A model generated the notes under the pieces. The model did not search any database, was not told the origin of the DNA, and worked only from the letters and a program-made list of their open reading frames with translations. Positions 7,031 through 44,780 of a stretch of DNA of 54,491 nucleotides are shown here, in pieces; within the stretch, counting starts at the first letter, position 1, and the number at the start of each line of letters is the position of its first letter. A program made the position numbers and the translations under genes. The stretch spans positions 1-54,491 of the forward strand of contig MHTV01000042.1 of assembly GCA_001823215.1 (NCBI GenBank). The letters are read 5' to 3'. This DNA is from Candidatus Wildermuthbacteria bacterium RIFCSPHIGHO2_02_FULL_45_25. Its GTDB lineage: Bacteria; Patescibacteriota; Minisyncoccia; Minisyncoccales; UBA10102.

Positions 7031-7192
7031 CTTTGAATTACGAAACCAGCACATATAAGGTTTTGAGAACACGGATATGTTTCTGCTGAAACATTCCTGG
7101 TGCTCCCCCTTCCACCTTGCGGTGAGGGGCTCGCGCCAGTCGCGCTCCCAACGTTCTCTAATCCTTGTATGCGCTGGTTTCGTAATTCAAAG
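7031..7192 (+). repeat. hairpin-embedded conserved-core element, copy A (40-nt inverted arms + 82-nt core)
   Basis: Arms 7031-7070 and 7153-7192 are reverse complements (36 of 40). The core 7071-7152 (acggatatgtttctgctgaaacattcc...cagtcgcgctcccaac) recurs at 36086-36170 and, shortened and inverted, at 31193-31247. Confidence 0.8.
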
Positions 7193-31160: not shown

Positions 31161-31279
31161 ATAGGGGGAATAAAGAACGCGCATCTGGGAACCTTGCGAG
31201 CGCGACTGGCGTGAGCACGAGGAATTTTTCAGCAGAAAAATATCCGCGTTCCCAGATGCGCGTTCTTTATTCCCCCTAT
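31161..31279 (-). repeat. hairpin-embedded conserved-core element, copy C (32-nt perfect arms + 55-nt short core, inverted orientation)
   Basis: Arms 31161-31192 and 31248-31279 are perfect reverse complements. The reverse complement of the core (gcggatatttttctgctgaaaaattcctcgtgctcacgccagtcgcgctcgcaagg) matches copies A and B but lacks their internal CCCC/GGGG hairpin. Confidence 0.8.
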
Positions 31280-36052: not shown

Positions 36053-36203
36053 ATGTCATGTATTTTTGCCATCGGATTTTGAGAGCACGGATATTTTTCT
36101 GCTGAAAAATTCCTCGTACTCCCCCTACCACTCGTGGCGAGGGGCTCGCGCGTCAGTCGCGCTCCCAAGTCTCTCAAAATCCGATGGCAAAAATGCATGA
36201 CAT
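36053..36203 (+). repeat. hairpin-embedded conserved-core element, copy B (33-nt arms + 85-nt core)
   Basis: Arms 36053-36085 and 36171-36203 are reverse complements with one mismatch. The core 36086-36170 matches copy A with compensatory changes in its first hairpin. Confidence 0.8.
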
Positions 36204-41454: not shown

Positions 41455-42381
41455 TTATTTCAACGCCTGTGAAATCGCATTTCCATTATACCTCATCAAC
41501 CCGATATAGCTATCTCTGCCTTCCACTCCTCCAGCTTCATCCAAAAGTGAAAGCGCAAGATTATTATCTTTGGCAAACTGCCGCAACGATTCGCTGTTCA
41601 TTTGCGGTTCGGCAAACAAAACCTTTATGTTATTTGTTTGTATTTCCTCCCGCAAGCGAGCAAGAAATTGCGGAGTTGGTTCTTCTCCGGCTCGCGGCTC
41701 AAAAGTGCCCACAATATGCAAATCGAAATTCTGGGCAAAGTAATAAAACGCGTCGTGCAAGGTAATGATATTTCTGCTTTCAAGTGTCGAGAGCTGTTCT
41801 TTGATTTCATGTTCCGCAAGGGAAAGCTCCTGTCCGTACACCCGCGCGTTTTCCCTGTAATCTGCTTCATGTTCCGAATCCAACTCTCCCAGCTTCCGAG
41901 CGATGGTATCTGCGATTATTCTCGCGTTTTCGAATGATAACCAATAATGGGGATCAATCGGGCCATGGTCGCGCGCTTCTCCTTCCTCTCCGTGTTCTTC
42001 GAGAGATGAGAGCAACGCAATCCCTTGATCAACCAGTGTAATTTCGCTTCCCGGAATTGCTTCTTTTGCTTTTGTTACCCAATCATCCGCACCGTATCCA
42101 ATGGCAAAAATTGCCTTTGTTCCTTGAAGATTCGCCAACTGGCGAGGAGAAAATTCATAAAAATGAGGCGAGGCGCCAGGAGGCACCAGGAGCTCAACAT
42201 TCGCATATTCGCCGGCAACATTTTTCGCAATATCATACAAAGGGGAAAAAGTCGCCGCCACTTTCAACTGCTTTTCATCCCGCCCATCCTCTCTCGCAGA
42301 ATCCCACAAAGCCCAAATTCCATACCCGGCAAACAAAACTGCGAAAAGCGTGGCGATCCCGATAGGGAAAAATTTTTTCAT
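41455..42381 (-). CDS. znuA: metal (probably zinc) ABC transporter substrate-binding protein, TroA/ZnuA family
   Basis: Signal peptide and cluster-9 SBP layout. The acidic, His-rich loop EEHGEEGEARDHGPIDPH is typical of ZnuA. The metal specificity is inference. Confidence 0.8.
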   Translation of the reverse strand: MKKFFPIGIATLFAVLFAGYGIWALWDSAREDGRDEKQLKVAATFSPLYDIAKNVAGEYANVELLVPPGASPHFYEFSPRQLANLQGTKAIFAIGYGADDWVTKAKEAIPGSEITLVDQGIALLSSLEEHGEEGEARDHGPIDPHYWLSFENARIIADTIARKLGELDSEHEADYRENARVYGQELSLAEHEIKEQLSTLESRNIITLHDAFYYFAQNFDLHIVGTFEPRAGEEPTPQFLARLREEIQTNNIKVLFAEPQMNSESLRQFAKDNNLALSLLDEAGGVEGRDSYIGLMRYNGNAISQALK

Positions 42382-42389
42382 ACACTTTT

Positions 42390-42419
42390 ATCTTAACGCA
42401 ACGCAGTTGCGAGTGTCAA
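42390..42419 (-). promoter_or_regulatory. candidate znuA promoter with a dyad in the spacer
   Basis: Minus strand TTGACA (42419-42414), spacer containing GCAAC-TGC-GTTGC, then TTAAGA/TAAGAT (42396-42390) ending only 8-9 nt before the ATG. No SD is present, so the mRNA is possibly leaderless. Confidence 0.4.
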
Positions 42420-42428
42420 GTTGATGCT

Positions 42429-42480
42429 TCTGGGGATTGGGAACATTGTGCTTGCAAGCACAATGTTCCCAATCCCCAGA
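42429..42480. repeat. 52-nt perfect palindrome (26-bp arms, no loop)
   Basis: tctggggattgggaacattgtgcttg|caagcacaatgttcccaatccccaga is exactly self-complementary. It lies just upstream of the znuA -35. Confidence 0.9.
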
Positions 42481-42510
42481 TTTTCCAAATCCAAATAGCA
42501 TGAGTGCACA

Positions 42511-42569
42511 GAAAAACAAAACTGCCTCTACCGGCAGAAAAAAAACGAGCCAGACAAAGAATGTCTGGC
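42511..42569 (-). terminator. tandem intrinsic terminators
   Basis: On the minus strand, ggccagaca-ttctt-tgtctggc is followed by tcg plus T8. Then ctgcc-ggtaga-ggcag is followed by ttttgttttt. Confidence 0.7.
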
Positions 42570-42830
42570 CCTAGAGAAAAATAAGGATGTGCGCTCCTCG
42601 GAAACTGAAGTGCAAGCGGCACTCATTTCCATTTTTTAATGAATAAGGAGGTAAGGAGAGGAAGTGTTTTCGCAAAAAGACATCCTTCCAATCATCCTTA
42701 CATTACTGTTACATTAAAAAGAACTGCTAAGAAAAAGGGGCATGTTAACACGTTATTTAAGGGAGTCCATCCAACTATGCTCAACTTTTCGCATTTGGCG
42801 ACCCAGGTGCCAACTCGTCCCCTTCTTCTT
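42538..42830 (-). ncRNA. candidate non-coding transcript of about 290 nt (unclassified) upstream of the znu operon
   Basis: It is bounded by a perfect consensus promoter (42837-42864) and the tandem terminators. Only mini-ORFs without an SD lie in this orientation. It contains a CU-rich tract (cttcctctccttacctcctt). Confidence 0.4.
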
Positions 42831-42836
42831 GCCGCC

Positions 42837-42864
42837 ATTATACACGAGCAAGAAATATTGTCAA
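42837..42864 (-). promoter_or_regulatory. consensus sigma70-type promoter
   Basis: Minus strand TTGACA (42864-42859), 16-nt spacer, TATAAT (42842-42837). It lies immediately after the terminator of the upstream gene. Confidence 0.65.
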
Positions 42865-42880
42865 GCAGCAGAGGGGCCAA

Positions 42881-42915
42881 GAACAAAACAAAAGGGGATG
42901 CATGAGCATCCCCTT
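42881..42915 (-). terminator. rho-independent terminator of the 42930-43490 gene
   Basis: aaggggatgc-atga-gcatcccctt, followed on the minus strand by ttgttttgttc. Confidence 0.7.
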
Positions 42916-42929
42916 ATTTCCTTTACTCC

Positions 42930-43490
42930 TCACTGCTCTCCCAACATCTCTTCCACTAAAGTCGCATGGAACTCATCGCGGAATTTCATTCCTTCAAGTT
43001 CCGTGCCTCTTACCCTACACAGAATAATGTTCGGGCGCTGTTCCATTGCTTTGCGCAACTCCGCGAATCTCCCCTCCGAAGAAACATGGATTTCGCCTCG
43101 ATAAATCCCCCGAAGCTCAACAGTCAGCGGATTCTCCTTTACCACAGGACTTTCCAACCGAATCCGCCGCAGAGTGAGAATCGTTCGCCTGGGCAGGAAT
43201 GCTTCAGCAACAAATACCGGAGGGAATAATTCCCTCTCATTTGTCAACACAAGTTGAGTTAAAGGGAAATTTGCTTCTCCTGCGGCGCGCATGAGAGCTT
43301 CAGTACATGTTTCAAGCCCACACGCCCCCGGTCTTCTCTCAATCTCGACTTCCAACAGAACTGCCTCCCCATTCACCTCCCGAACAATCACCCATAACCC
43401 ATTAGGACTTTGGACAGATATCAGAACAGTACTCCTAATTCTCGCAATAAATTCCAACGTCGTTCCTCTCTTTCTGCACAGGATACCCAC
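42930..43490 (-). CDS. hypothetical protein
   Basis: 186-aa ORF with normal composition and its own terminator. No family recognised. Confidence 0.55.
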   Translation of the reverse strand: MGILCRKRGTTLEFIARIRSTVLISVQSPNGLWVIVREVNGEAVLLEVEIERRPGACGLETCTEALMRAAGEANFPLTQLVLTNERELFPPVFVAEAFLPRRTILTLRRIRLESPVVKENPLTVELRGIYRGEIHVSSEGRFAELRKAMEQRPNIILCRVRGTELEGMKFRDEFHATLVEEMLGEQ

Positions 43491-43514
43491 CTTTTACATC
43501 ATCTTTCTTAAAAG

Positions 43515-44780
43515 TCAATGGGAATCGCGCAACTCTTCTCCCGCATGACTGCCCGCCACATATCCGGTAGTCCAGCACAGTTGAAGAGAATAACCTCCCG
43601 ACGGACGATTAACATGCAAAAGATCACCTGTAATATACAGGTTGTCATATAGTTTCGATCGCATACTGCGGGTATCAATTTCCTCCAGCACAGCTCCCCC
43701 ATCCACGACAATCGCGCGGTCATATCCCAGCAAATTGGTAATTGTAACCGGCAAACACTTCATCAGCTTGGCAATTTCTCTCCGTTGCTCCTTTGTAACA
43801 CTATGCACTTTTCCATCTTCGCTGATCTTTTTAGAGATTTCAACAAAGGGTGCGACAACAGCGCTTGGCATAAACTCTTTGAGCATATTCTTGAGCAGTT
43901 TATTTTTATTCCTCTCAAAGACATCCAGAATATGAGCTTCCAGTTTCCTCAAATCAACATCAGGCGTAATATCAATCTCCGCAGTTACCACGCCTTCATG
44001 CAGGAGATCGCTTACTTTCGCGGCGCTATTTAATACGCAAGGACCGGAAAGGCCAAAATGCGTAAAAAGTATTTCCCCTGTTTTGGAAAACTGTTTCTTT
44101 CCGTTCACAAAGAAAGTAATTCCTGCTTTTGCTAAAGCTACTCCCGATAATTTTTTTGCCCATTGCTCCCGCACAGCCAAAGGTACAAGCGTGGGCGTGG
44201 GAACTTGGACTGTATGTCCGAGTTTCCCCAGCCAATCGAAACCATCGCCTGTAGAACCGGTTTCAGGATGAGAGAATCCACCGGAAGAGAGGATCATGGT
44301 GTACGCGCGATATTCTCCGCGCGAACTTTTGACTCCCAATACAGACCGTTTCCCATCCGTGATAATTTCCCGAACCAGCGTATCGAGCTGAAGCATTACC
44401 TTATTTTTCCTTATATATTCTTCCAGAACGCGCACCACATCTGAAGCTCGTTCTGTCTGCGGAAAAACTCGTTTTTTCTCTTGTACCACAAGCGGCAACC
44501 CTTTTGACTCAAAAAATGCATAAGTATCTTTTACGCCAAATTGGGAAAAAGGCGAGTATAGAAATTGCTCGGCCTTCCCGTAATGTCGGAGCAATGCCCG
44601 ATCGTCAAATTCGGCATTGGCGATATTGCACCTTCCACCGCCTGTGATTCTTAACTTCTCTCCAAGCCGCTTGTTTTTTTCAAGCAAGAGCACGCGTTTG
44701 CCGCGTTCTGCCGCGCGTCCCGCGGCTATCATTCCGGAAGCTCCGCCTCCAACAACAATAACATCAAAATCTGCATTCAT
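43515..44780 (-). CDS. BaiN/RdsA (HI0933-like) family NAD(P)/FAD-dependent oxidoreductase
   Basis: N-terminal FDVIVVGGGASGMIAAGRAAE dinucleotide motif and C-terminal LYITGDLLHVNRPSGGYSLQ, typical of the HI0933 family. Confidence 0.88.
   Translation of the reverse strand: MNADFDVIVVGGGASGMIAAGRAAERGKRVLLLEKNKRLGEKLRITGGGRCNIANAEFDDRALLRHYGKAEQFLYSPFSQFGVKDTYAFFESKGLPLVVQEKKRVFPQTERASDVVRVLEEYIRKNKVMLQLDTLVREIITDGKRSVLGVKSSRGEYRAYTMILSSGGFSHPETGSTGDGFDWLGKLGHTVQVPTPTLVPLAVREQWAKKLSGVALAKAGITFFVNGKKQFSKTGEILFTHFGLSGPCVLNSAAKVSDLLHEGVVTAEIDITPDVDLRKLEAHILDVFERNKNKLLKNMLKEFMPSAVVAPFVEISKKISEDGKVHSVTKEQRREIAKLMKCLPVTITNLLGYDRAIVVDGGAVLEEIDTRSMRSKLYDNLYITGDLLHVNRPSGGYSLQLCWTTGYVAGSHAGEELRDSH

What the first reader, a model, noticed from the sequence alone, without database searches (positions are those of the whole stretch)
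42511..42864. Orphan transcription unit (consensus promoter, about 290 nt, tandem terminators) with no credible ORF, directly upstream of the znu operon
Seen on the minus strand:
- TTGACA-16 nt-TATAAT (42864-42837) begins right after the terminator of the preceding gene.
- About 290 nt later come two consecutive intrinsic terminators (42569-42511), the first with an 8-bp GC-rich stem and a T8 run.

A 12/12 consensus promoter with a 16-18-nt spacer is expected about 0.02 times in this amount of two-strand sequence under equal base frequencies (somewhat more in AT-rich DNA).

In that orientation there are only 9-34-codon ORFs without SD sequences. The transcript contains a pyrimidine tract complementary to SD sequences (cuuccucuccuuaccuccuu).

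Inference: it is either an independent sRNA or a terminated leader or riboswitch-like element sensing a signal for the downstream metal-uptake operon.
Basis: partly seen in the sequence, partly recalled or inferred. Interest (0 to 1): 0.6.

Follow-up and report, generated by a model that had tools for sequence, protein, structure and literature searches.

The report
Orphan small-RNA gene beside znuA
A 548-base gap in a tiny groundwater (CPR/Patescibacteria) genome most likely holds a stand-alone gene for a folded non-coding RNA of about 290 nt that has no relative in anything searched. It is probably not a switch for the neighbouring metal-uptake genes, and no expression data could be obtained.

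Summary
On the minus strand a 12/12 promoter (42864-42837) is followed by about 290 nt with no credible ORF. A strong terminator follows (42571-42547 plus T8, -18.1 kcal/mol), then a weak second one.

The promoter is probably real. The 0.87-Mb genome has eight 12/12 promoters against 0.64 expected, and none lies inside a credible gene.

The transcript folds unusually well (z -5.6 overall, -4.1 without the terminator). Only 1 of 110 random genome windows folded that well. A 109-nt helix starts at the predicted transcript start and is favoured on the minus strand.

The transcript matches no Rfam family. I found no homolog in about 440 related genomes, phages, plasmids or the protein databases. 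The genome's nearest sampled relative is only 65% identical in a neighbouring conserved protein.

The leader/riboswitch reading is not supported. znuA has its own TTGACA-18-TAAGAT promoter, with an operator-like palindrome in the spacer. The -10 ends 8 nt before an ATG that has no Shine-Dalgarno (SD) sequence, so the mRNA is leaderless, which is common in this genome.

The RNA is not a detectable member of the pth-linked CCCUCCU-loop sRNA family that this scan found in other CPR genomes.

Function is inferred only.

The parts
42892..42915 (-). Intrinsic terminator of the preceding 186-aa orphan gene. It marks the upstream boundary of the unit.
   Evidence: 10-bp stem, 4-nt loop, T-rich tail. 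The sequence was read.
42837..42864 (-). Sigma-70-type promoter TTGACA-16 nt-TATAAT (12/12).
   Evidence: There are 8 such sites in the genome against 0.64 expected, all outside credible genes.
42538..42832 (-). Predicted primary transcript of about 290-295 nt, running from a start near G42832/A42830 to the U-tract of terminator 1. The boundaries are inferred, not measured.
   Evidence: MFE -97.5 kcal/mol, z -5.63. Without the terminator, z -4.1 on the minus strand against -2.5 on the plus strand. 1 of 110 random 258-nt genome windows reached z -4.1. No Rfam match.
42726..42832 (-). Domain 1: a 5'-terminal rod-like hairpin that begins at the predicted transcript start. It has helices of 14, 2, 8, 5, 4 and 4 bp, a 10-nt apical loop GAAAAGUUGA and an open internal loop CUUAAAUAAC.
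   Evidence: -41.3 kcal/mol, z -4.45. The fold is strand-specific, z -4.3 on minus against -1.7 on plus, because G-U pairs become A-C on the other strand.
42633..42720 (-). Domain 2: a hairpin in which two AAGGAUG segments pair with the CU-rich tract (42664-42645).
   Evidence: -20.7 kcal/mol, z -3.2 on the minus strand. The plus-strand version folds better, -26.3 kcal/mol, z -5.45.
42644..42652 (-). ACCUCCUUA, identical to the canonical anti-Shine-Dalgarno core. It lies mostly in an internal loop of domain 2. On the plus strand it reads TAAGGAGGT.
   Evidence: Sequence. Unpaired probability is 0.3-0.9 for CUCCUUAUU. The 16S rRNA gene is not in the assembly, so the organism's own anti-SD sequence could not be read.
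42582..42630 (-). Domains 3 and 4: two short hairpins, 42630-42599 and 42598-42582.
42538..42571 (-). Terminator 1: 10-bp stem, 5-nt loop, U8.
   Evidence: -18.1 kcal/mol, z -6.35.
42512..42537 (-). Terminator 2, a weak back-up: 5-bp stem, 6-nt loop, U4GU5.
   Evidence: -8.5 kcal/mol, z -2.2.
42429..42480 (.). Perfect 52-nt palindrome between the terminators and the znuA promoter. It is context, not part of the predicted RNA.
   Evidence: 26-nt arms, 100% complementary. -46 kcal/mol as RNA. Identical in all 19 population contigs.
42379..42419 (-). znuA's own promoter TTGACA-18 nt-TAAGAT (42419-42390). The spacer holds the palindrome CGCAAC-N3-GTTGCG (42411-42397). The start ATG (42381-42379) has no SD and lies 8 nt after the -10, which indicates a leaderless mRNA.

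Best explanation
The gap holds a stand-alone, strongly and probably constitutively transcribed gene for a structured non-coding RNA of about 290 nt. The gene is specific to this lineage.

Proposed working:
- RNA polymerase starts about 6 nt after the consensus -10.
- The first 109 nt fold at once into a long 5'-terminal helix. Such a helix would protect the 5' end (inferred).
- Three smaller hairpins follow.
- Transcription stops at a strong intrinsic terminator, backed by a weak second one, so the RNA is insulated from znuA.

The RNA most likely acts in trans. The likeliest route is pairing through its exposed segments: the ACCUCCUUA anti-SD-like internal loop, the GAAAAGUUGA apical loop and the CUUAAAUAAC internal loop. 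These would pair with mRNAs, for example with the minority of messages in this genome that carry an SD. An action as a protein-binding RNA is the alternative.

Shown by computation: the promoter and terminator motifs, the fold statistics, the absence of a conserved ORF, the absence of homologs, and the promoter-like motif in front of znuA. Inferred: that the unit is transcribed, its ends, and every statement about function.
For: - The 12/12 promoter belongs to a class that is 12-fold enriched in this genome and lies only outside credible genes.
- The terminator is strong, -18.1 kcal/mol followed by U8.
- The whole transcript has z -5.63. The body without the terminator has z -4.1, reached by 1 of 110 random genome windows.
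- Domain 1 starts at the predicted +1 and folds far better on the minus strand, z -4.3 against -1.7.
- No ORF inside the transcript exceeds 34 codons. The 88-aa and 62-aa ORFs across it have no homologs and no Pfam hit.
- It is not a tRNA or tmRNA and matches no Rfam family at E<=1.
- It is not a copy of the genome's hairpin repeat elements, and it has no paralog.
- znuA has its own leaderless promoter with an operator-like palindrome.
- There are no SNPs in the 548-nt gap across 19 population contigs. About 3 would be expected from the flanks. This is weak evidence because the SNPs are clustered.
Against: - There is no evidence of transcription.
- No homolog was found anywhere, so there is no covariation and no conservation: 40 relatives by DNA, 35 family genomes by two covariance models, 400 genomes of the order by DNA, and phages and plasmids.
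- An orphan sequence next to an orphan 186-aa gene could be recent, evolutionarily transient DNA.
- Domain 2 folds better on the plus strand.
- No Hfq or CsrA gene was found in the genome.
- A crude duplex scan against 759 gene starts gave no informative target.
Confidence: 0.5

Rival explanations
1. Functionless or decaying DNA. The promoter may fire, but the transcript is a by-product with no role, for example the remnant of a lost gene or of recently acquired DNA. Its folding would come from local inverted repeats rather than from selection on an RNA.
For: - There is no homolog of the RNA, nor of the adjacent 186-aa ORF, in any collection.
- The neighbourhood is not syntenic in the nearest relatives.
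- The same gap holds a perfect 52-nt palindrome, and the genome carries hairpin repeat elements, so DNA-level hairpins arise here.
- 6 of 110 random windows reach z <= -3.
Against: - The genome is 0.87 Mb and about 89% coding by a crude call, so long idle spacers are rare.
- A full consensus promoter, a helix starting at +1 and a strong terminator in the right order and orientation are unlikely in decaying DNA.
- Translated searches of the gap find no trace of a former gene.
- There are no SNPs in the gap in 19 contigs.
Confidence: 0.2
2. A sense/antisense pair of the type I toxin-antitoxin kind. The plus strand would encode a 17-codon peptide (GTG 42664; MFSQKDILPIILTLLLH) behind tandem SD sequences (TAAGGAGG-TAAGGAG). 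The strongly expressed minus-strand RNA would be its antisense repressor, and the 'anti-SD tract' would simply be the complement of that ribosome-binding site.
For: - TAAGGAGGT followed by AAGGAG lies 5 nt before a GTG, in a genome where only about 15% of gene starts have an SD-like motif.
- Domain 2 folds better on the plus strand (-26.3 kcal/mol, z -5.45) and buries the GTG. Toxin mRNAs of this kind often do the same (my own knowledge).
- The peptide has a hydrophobic C-terminal half.
- The antisense RNA has a much stronger promoter than any candidate on the sense strand.
Against: - The best plus-strand promoter upstream of the ORF scores only 7-8 of 12 and is badly placed.
- The hydrophobic stretch is only about 10 residues, too short to span a membrane.
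- There is no paralog in the genome, whereas such loci are usually multi-copy.
- There is no convincing plus-strand terminator.
- The peptide is too short for any homology tool used here.
Confidence: 0.1
3. A cis-acting leader of the metal-uptake operon. Transcription from the consensus promoter would be stopped at the tandem terminators or allowed to read into znuACB, depending on a metal or another signal sensed by the folded RNA (riboswitch or attenuator).
For: - The unit lies on the same strand as znuACB and directly upstream of it.
- It has two successive terminators.
- A 10-nt alternative pairing exists between the domain 2 apex (AAGGAUGUCU) and the 5' arm plus loop of terminator 1 (pair I8).
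- Earlier notes of this scan describe promoter-plus-double-switch attenuator cassettes in other CPR genomes.
Against: - znuA has its own promoter with a perfect -35, an operator-like palindrome and a leaderless ATG without an SD. A read-through transcript would carry that ATG internally with no ribosome-binding site.
- A -46 kcal/mol palindrome lies in between.
- No riboswitch or leader family matches.
- The transcript has no start codon in its first ~20 nt, so the leaderless leader-peptide design does not apply.
- The alternative pairing would open only half of the terminator stem.
Confidence: 0.07
4. A small-protein gene on the minus strand, using one of the 10- to 34-codon ORFs inside the transcript.
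For: - Other 12/12 promoters in this genome drive small ORFs of about 35-80 codons with short or no leaders.
- Earlier notes of this scan report such micro-genes in other CPR genomes.
Against: - There is no ATG or GTG within about 20 nt of the predicted start.
- The ORFs have no SD at a workable distance, and one of the 34-codon ORFs runs through the terminator hairpin.
- The Pfam scan of the ORFs found nothing.
Confidence: 0.05
5. A diverged housekeeping RNA (RNase P RNA, SRP RNA or 6S RNA). None of these reaches its Rfam cut-off elsewhere in this assembly.
For: - No RNase P RNA (type A or B) and no SRP RNA (bacterial small, bacterial large or archaeal model) was found in the genome.
- The length of about 290 nt is in the right range.
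Against: - A permissive scan of the region with all 4227 Rfam models (E<=1) shows no trace of any of them.
- RNase P RNA is readily found in 31 of 35 family genomes, often at contig ends. Its absence here therefore looks like an assembly gap; the rRNA genes are missing too.
- A housekeeping RNA would have homologs in relatives, and this RNA has none.
- A weak 6S candidate lies elsewhere, at C1:36535-36670.
Confidence: 0.03

Closest known systems
Base-pairing sRNAs of Gram-positive bacteria with C/U-rich anti-SD seed motifs (RsaE/RoxS, RNAIII hairpins); from my own knowledge
   Same: It is a stand-alone unit with its own promoter and intrinsic terminator. It is non-coding and made of several hairpins. 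It has a pyrimidine segment complementary to SD sequences that is at least partly unpaired. The genome has no Hfq gene.
   Different: - There is no sequence or structural homology, and those families are in Rfam.
- The motif sits in an internal loop, not in apical loops, and occurs once rather than several times.
- The RNA is about 290 nt, two to three times longer.
- There is no conservation and there are no known targets.
- The host genome uses SD sequences in only a minority of genes.
pth-linked CCCUCCU-loop small RNA of Patescibacteria
   Same: It occurs in CPR hosts, has a consensus-type promoter and a long closing helix, is non-coding, displays an anti-SD-like sequence, and is absent from Rfam.
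   Different: - My covariance model of 14 copies also finds 3 copies it was not trained on. It gives no match in the window (best 2.8 bits) or in any of the 36 genomes of this family.
- This RNA is not beside pth. The pth flanks in this genome are 85 and 23 nt.
- The motif is ACCUCCUUA in an internal loop, not CCCUCCU in a hairpin loop.
- It is about twice as long.
Ibs/Sib-type type I toxin-antitoxin loci of E. coli (from my own knowledge)
   Same: A very short ORF with a hydrophobic tail and a strong SD lies exactly antisense to a strongly promoted small RNA.
   Different: No credible promoter for the ORF, a hydrophobic stretch too short for a membrane helix, a single copy, and no homology testable.
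Metal-sensing riboswitch leaders (czcD/NiCo, yybP-ykoY Mn) and terminator-based attenuators
   Same: A structured RNA ending in intrinsic terminators lies upstream of, and on the same strand as, a metal-transport operon.
   Different: - There is no match to those families.
- The downstream gene has its own leaderless promoter with an operator-like site.
- There is no convincing antiterminator.
- A large palindrome separates the two units.

Membership tests
Any Rfam 15 family (including riboswitches, 6S, RNase P, SRP, tmRNA) | Covariance-model match at or near the family's gathering score | tested here: not met
   A permissive scan of 41500-44000 (E<=1) gave only miRNA/snoRNA-type chance hits far below their cut-offs. 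ARAGORN found nothing.
Cis-regulatory leader or riboswitch of znuACB | The leader and the regulated ORF lie on one mRNA, with no separate promoter for the ORF | tested here: not met
   TTGACA-18-TAAGAT ends 8 nt before the znuA ATG, which has no SD. The spacing fits the genome-wide leaderless peak. This rests on motifs only; the transcript start was not mapped.
Cis-regulatory leader or riboswitch of znuACB | Mutually exclusive terminator and antiterminator structures | tested here: inconclusive
   There is only a 10-nt AU-rich alternative pairing with half of the terminator 1 stem (pair I8). The MFE and the centroid both keep the terminator.
Cis-regulatory leader or riboswitch of znuACB | A conserved ligand-binding fold upstream of orthologous operons | tested here: not met
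   No homolog was found anywhere. The closest ZnuA-like proteins in the genome and metagenome collections are 41% identical or less, and their loci were not examined further.
Trans-acting base-pairing sRNA (generic) | Own promoter and own Rho-independent terminator, between genes, non-coding | tested here: met
   These are predicted signals only.
Trans-acting base-pairing sRNA (generic) | Detected transcript of discrete size | not testable with these tools
Trans-acting base-pairing sRNA (generic) | An accessible seed with identifiable mRNA targets | tested here: inconclusive
   Accessible segments exist. A crude duplex scan over 759 gene starts gave no meaningful ranking, and znuA ranked 456th.
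pth-linked CCCUCCU-loop sRNA of Patescibacteria (scan-internal family) | Match to a covariance model of the family | tested here: not met
   Model R3 was built from 14 copies. As a control it finds 3 untrained copies at 33-55 bits. It gives no hit in the window, 2.8 bits at best with filters off, and no hit in 36 family genomes.
pth-linked CCCUCCU-loop sRNA of Patescibacteria (scan-internal family) | Position next to pth | tested here: not met
   pth lies at C30:19048-19677, on another contig, with flanking gaps of 85 and 23 nt.
Type I toxin-antitoxin (Ibs/Sib-like) | A small ORF with a membrane-spanning hydrophobic segment and its own promoter, antisense to the sRNA | tested here: not met
   The 17-codon ORF with an SD is present. 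However, its hydrophobic run is only about 10 residues, and no plus-strand promoter reaches 9 of 12.
Patescibacterial hairpin-tip repeat element (scan-internal family, three copies in this window) | The conserved ~56-nt core sequence | tested here: not met
   The core was read at 7031-7192, 31161-31279 and 36053-36203. It has no similarity to the gap.

The most novel reading that the evidence does not exclude
The RNA could be a non-homologous functional stand-in for the pth-linked CCCUCCU-loop sRNA. That sRNA is kept by many Patescibacteria, but this whole family (0 of 36 genomes) lacks it.

On this reading it is an abundant RNA that displays the ribosome's anti-SD sequence (ACCUCCUUA) in an open loop. 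It would titrate or mask the SD sites of the minority of mRNAs that still use them, in a largely leaderless genome. That would amount to a global translation modulator that arose independently in one lineage.
Probability: 0.1. Interest if true: 0.6.

Novelty: new member of a known kind. Interest (0 to 1): 0.3.

Why it matters
Almost nothing is known about RNA-based regulation in the ultra-small, uncultured CPR/Patescibacteria. If the unit is expressed, it would be one more lineage-specific small RNA in a genome that has shed most regulators: no Hfq or CsrA gene was found here. Its anti-SD-like loop would tie it to the question of how translation start is controlled in a genome that mostly uses leaderless mRNAs.

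As it stands it is a well-formed but orphan prediction, with neither conservation nor expression data, so its value is as a candidate for metatranscriptome mapping. The side result is useful for annotating this operon: znuA looks like a leaderless, operator-controlled gene rather than a riboswitch-controlled one.

Tried and rejected
- **Rfam.** A permissive scan of the region found nothing real.
- **Housekeeping-RNA idea.** I searched the genome for RNase P A and B, small, large and archaeal SRP, 6S and tmRNA, and the family genomes for RNase P and SRP. I rejected the idea because the region shows no trace of these models and the RNA has no homologs.
- **Homolog hunting.** All of the following were negative or chance:
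  - DNA search of 40 relatives and of 400 genomes of the order. Every short hit lies inside a long ORF.
  - Two single-sequence covariance models against 35 family genomes. The one E=0.05 hit lies inside a 554-aa ORF.
  - Phages and plasmids.
  - ZnuA-anchored loci in genome and metagenome collections. The nearest is 41% identical.
  - Exact-protein look-ups, which returned only the same population at 99.7% identity or more.
  - The neighbouring flavoprotein. Its nearest relative is 65% identical and there is no synteny.
- **Protein-coding readings.** Pfam, PADLOC and NCBIfam scans of the ORFs and of the 186-aa neighbour gave nothing. The 88-aa and 62-aa ORFs have no homologs. The 186-aa protein is an orphan and its AlphaFold model is unusable, pLDDT 34, so no fold search was run.
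- **Repeat, TIGR-array or mobile-element reading.** There are no tandem or dispersed repeats.
- **CsrA-sponge idea.** No csrA gene was found.
- **Target prediction.** The duplexfold scan was uninformative.
- **Shared promoter spacer.** The promoter at C3:6409 shares the spacer TATTTCTTGC with this one. I discounted this because the word is over-represented genome-wide.
Full report
**Setting**

The window is contig C42 of an 867,755-base, 46-contig genome that is 97% complete by marker genes. Exact-protein look-ups place it in Rifle-aquifer assemblies, including GCA_001823135.1. Earlier notes of this scan and the names given to neighbouring proteins identify it as a CPR/Patescibacteria bacterium.

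Minus-strand gene order around the finding:
- a serine hydrolase;
- an HI0933-like flavoprotein (43515-44780);
- a 186-aa ORF (42930-43490);
- a 548-nt gap (42382-42929);
- a ZnuA-family binding protein (41455-42381), an ABC ATPase and an ABC-3 permease;
- a short-chain dehydrogenase.

The binding protein scores similarly, and below cut-off, against the zinc (AztC) and manganese (MntC) models. 'znu' is therefore a family name, not a proven specificity.

**Observation**

Read on the minus strand, the gap contains the following, in order:
- The terminator of the 186-aa gene (42915-42892).
- TTGACA-16-TATAAT (42864-42837, 12/12).
- About 290 nt without a credible ORF.
- Terminator 1: 42571-42547, 10-bp stem, U8, -18.1 kcal/mol.
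- Terminator 2: 42537-42522, a weak 5-bp stem, -8.5 kcal/mol.
- A perfect 52-nt palindrome (42480-42429).
- A second promoter, TTGACA-18-TAAGAT (42419-42390), whose -10 ends 8 nt before the znuA ATG.

**Is it more than chance?**

I counted 12/12 promoters with 16-18-nt spacers in the whole genome. There are 8, against 0.64 expected from base composition. None lies inside a credible gene. Each stands in front of a plausible unit: a small ORF, an ordinary gene, or another ORF-free structured stretch. The promoter class is clearly under selection in this organism, so this copy is very probably active.

The predicted transcript (42832-42538) folds to -97.5 kcal/mol, z -5.63 against dinucleotide shuffles. 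Without the terminator the body still gives z -4.1 on the minus strand and -2.5 on the plus strand. Only 1 of 110 random 258-nt windows of this genome reached -4.1 (mean -0.49, sd 1.46).

The first 109 nt form a rod-like helix that begins at the predicted +1. It is strongly strand-specific: z -4.3 to -4.45 on the minus strand against -1.7 on the plus strand.

The second domain pairs two AAGGAUG segments with the pyrimidine tract. It leaves ACCUCCUUA largely unpaired in an internal loop. This domain folds better on the plus strand, z -5.45 against -3.2. I cannot explain that under the sRNA reading, and it keeps an antisense-pair reading alive.

**Coding potential**

- Inside the transcript the longest ORFs are 34, 34 and 22 codons. 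None has a usable SD, and one runs through terminator 1.
- No ATG or GTG lies in the first ~20 nt. The 'leaderless leader peptide' design that earlier notes of this scan describe for other CPR genomes therefore does not apply.
- The 88-aa plus-strand ORF, which some annotation pipelines call as a gene, found only itself among 1.84 billion cluster representatives.
- The 62-aa minus-strand ORF found nothing.
- Pfam found nothing in either.
- The 17-codon plus-strand ORF behind TAAGGAGG-TAAGGAG is too short for any search tool.

**Known RNA families**

A permissive scan with all Rfam 15 models (E<=1) gave only chance miRNA/snoRNA-type hits. ARAGORN found nothing.

The genome-wide searches found no RNase P RNA and no SRP RNA in this assembly. 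I therefore asked whether the unit could be a diverged housekeeping RNA. It is not:
- The region shows no trace of those models.
- RNase P RNA is found in 31 of 35 family genomes, often at contig ends, so its absence here looks like an assembly gap. The 16S gene is missing too.
- A housekeeping RNA would have homologs in relatives, and this RNA has none.

**Relatives**

None was found.
- DNA search of 40 relatives: none.
- Covariance models built from domain 1 and from domains 2-4, searched against 35 family genomes: none. The single E=0.05 hit lies inside a 554-aa ORF.
- DNA search of 400 genomes of the order: only 19-59-nt matches at chance level. The five I inspected all lie inside long ORFs.
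- Phages and plasmids: none.

The organism itself is isolated. The conserved flavoprotein next door drops from 100% identity straight to 65% in a 5.8-billion-protein collection. The loci of three such relatives share no synteny. The 186-aa neighbour has no homolog at all.

Nineteen contigs from the same population are at least 99.7% identical. They carry 38 polymorphic sites in 7 kb but none in the gap. About 3 would be expected, which is weak evidence because the sites are clustered. A covariation test is therefore impossible at present.

**Leader or independent gene?**

The znuA start has no SD. It lies 8 nt after a -10 that is paired with a perfect -35.

Genome-wide, only about 15% of the gene starts I called have an SD-like motif. 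Hexamers resembling a -10 pile up 6 nt before start codons (36 cases against a background of about 10), and also at 8-9 nt. This is the signature of leaderless mRNAs.

The znuA promoter spacer contains CGCAAC-N3-GTTGCG, which is unique in the genome. That is where a metal-dependent repressor would be expected to bind. One Fur-family gene exists, on contig C13.

A transcript reading through from the upstream promoter would have to pass two terminators and a -46 kcal/mol hairpin. It would then present the znuA ATG internally with no ribosome-binding site.

I therefore regard the unit as insulated from znuA rather than regulating it in cis. The only hint of a switch is a 10-nt AU-rich alternative pairing with half of terminator 1.

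**Relation to the scan's pth-linked anti-SD sRNA**

Earlier notes describe a conserved CPR small RNA beside pth with a CCCUCCU loop. I tested whether this unit belongs to it.
- In this genome pth (C30:19048-19677) has flanks of only 85 and 23 nt.
- None of the 30 family pth loci fetched (29 from relatives plus this genome's own) has a CCCTCCT-bearing gap.
- At class level I recovered 15 copies next to pth in 14 of 28 loci. I aligned 14 of them and built model R3.
- As a control, R3 detects three copies that were not in the training alignment, at 33-55 bits.
- R3 finds nothing in the window, at most 2.8 bits in the gap with filters off, and nothing in any of the 36 genomes of this family.

This RNA is therefore not a detectable member, and this family appears to lack that sRNA. 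The shared theme, an abundant RNA showing an anti-SD-like sequence, is a resemblance only.

**Mechanism and odds**

- **Stand-alone, strongly transcribed structured RNA acting in trans (0.5).** The likeliest route is pairing through its open segments, including the anti-SD-like loop.
- **Functionless or transient DNA with an active promoter (0.2).**
- **Type I toxin-antitoxin-like sense/antisense pair around the 17-codon ORF (0.1).**
- **Cis leader of znuACB (0.07).**
- **Minus-strand micro-protein gene (0.05).**
- **Diverged housekeeping RNA (0.03).**

Only the sequence signals, the fold statistics and the negative searches are shown. Transcription, transcript ends and function are inferred.

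**Verdict**

This is a well-formed but orphan candidate small-RNA gene. It is a new member of a known kind, of modest interest until expression or conservation is shown.

Noticed in passing
window 42379-42419 (minus strand): znuA appears to be a leaderless gene. A perfect -35 and TAAGAT end 8 nt before an ATG that has no SD. The 6-3-6 palindrome CGCAAC-N3-GTTGCG sits in the promoter spacer. It is unique in the genome and is a likely repressor site.
   Followed up: partly
whole genome G000: Leaderless signature: hexamers resembling a -10 (TAnnWT) peak 6 nt before start codons (36 against about 10 background) and are raised at 8-9 nt. Only about 15% of the 607 gene starts I called have an SD-like motif.
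   Followed up: partly
35 family genomes; L056 = G022:C16:305-567: Neither bacterial SRP RNA model (small or large) finds an SRP RNA in 34 of 35 genomes of this family, including a single-contig genome. The one candidate, in G022, scores best against the archaeal SRP model (74 bits, below cut-off). The family's SRP RNA seems to be a diverged, long Alu-domain type.
   Followed up: partly
genome G000: No RNase P RNA (type A or B) and no 16S rRNA 3' end are in the assembly, although 31 of 35 relatives have a type A RNase P RNA, often at contig ends. This is probably an assembly gap.
   Followed up: partly
window 42930-43490 (minus strand): The 186-aa ORF between the flavoprotein gene and the RNA unit has no homolog in 5.8 billion proteins and no Pfam, NCBIfam or PADLOC hit. 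Its AlphaFold model is unusable (pLDDT 34), and its G+C is higher (0.51) than the genome's (0.45).
   Followed up: partly
G000:C35:12011 (+) and G000:C3:6409 (-): Two further 12/12 promoters drive orphan units. On C35 a structured stretch has no same-strand ORF for 3 kb. On C3 a ~35-codon ORF is followed by a terminator. The C3 promoter shares the spacer word TATTTCTTGC with the promoter studied here, but that word is common in the genome.
   Followed up: partly
class-level pth loci L096-L123: The pth-linked small RNA with a CCCUCCU loop is real and recurrent. I found 15 copies in 14 of 28 loci by motif, plus 3 more by covariance model, and two tandem copies in L118. It was not found in any of the 36 genomes of this window's family.
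   Followed up: yes
G000:C46:57-262 (minus strand): Four copies of a ~36-nt unit (CCCCCGACCCCTCCTCTTCAGGTATACCTTCGAGGG) are spaced about 68 nt apart at a contig end. This could be a CRISPR array.
   Followed up: no
window 42429-42480: A perfect 52-nt palindrome (-46 kcal/mol as RNA) is identical in all population contigs. Three Logan contigs end inside it, so it breaks assemblies.
   Followed up: partly
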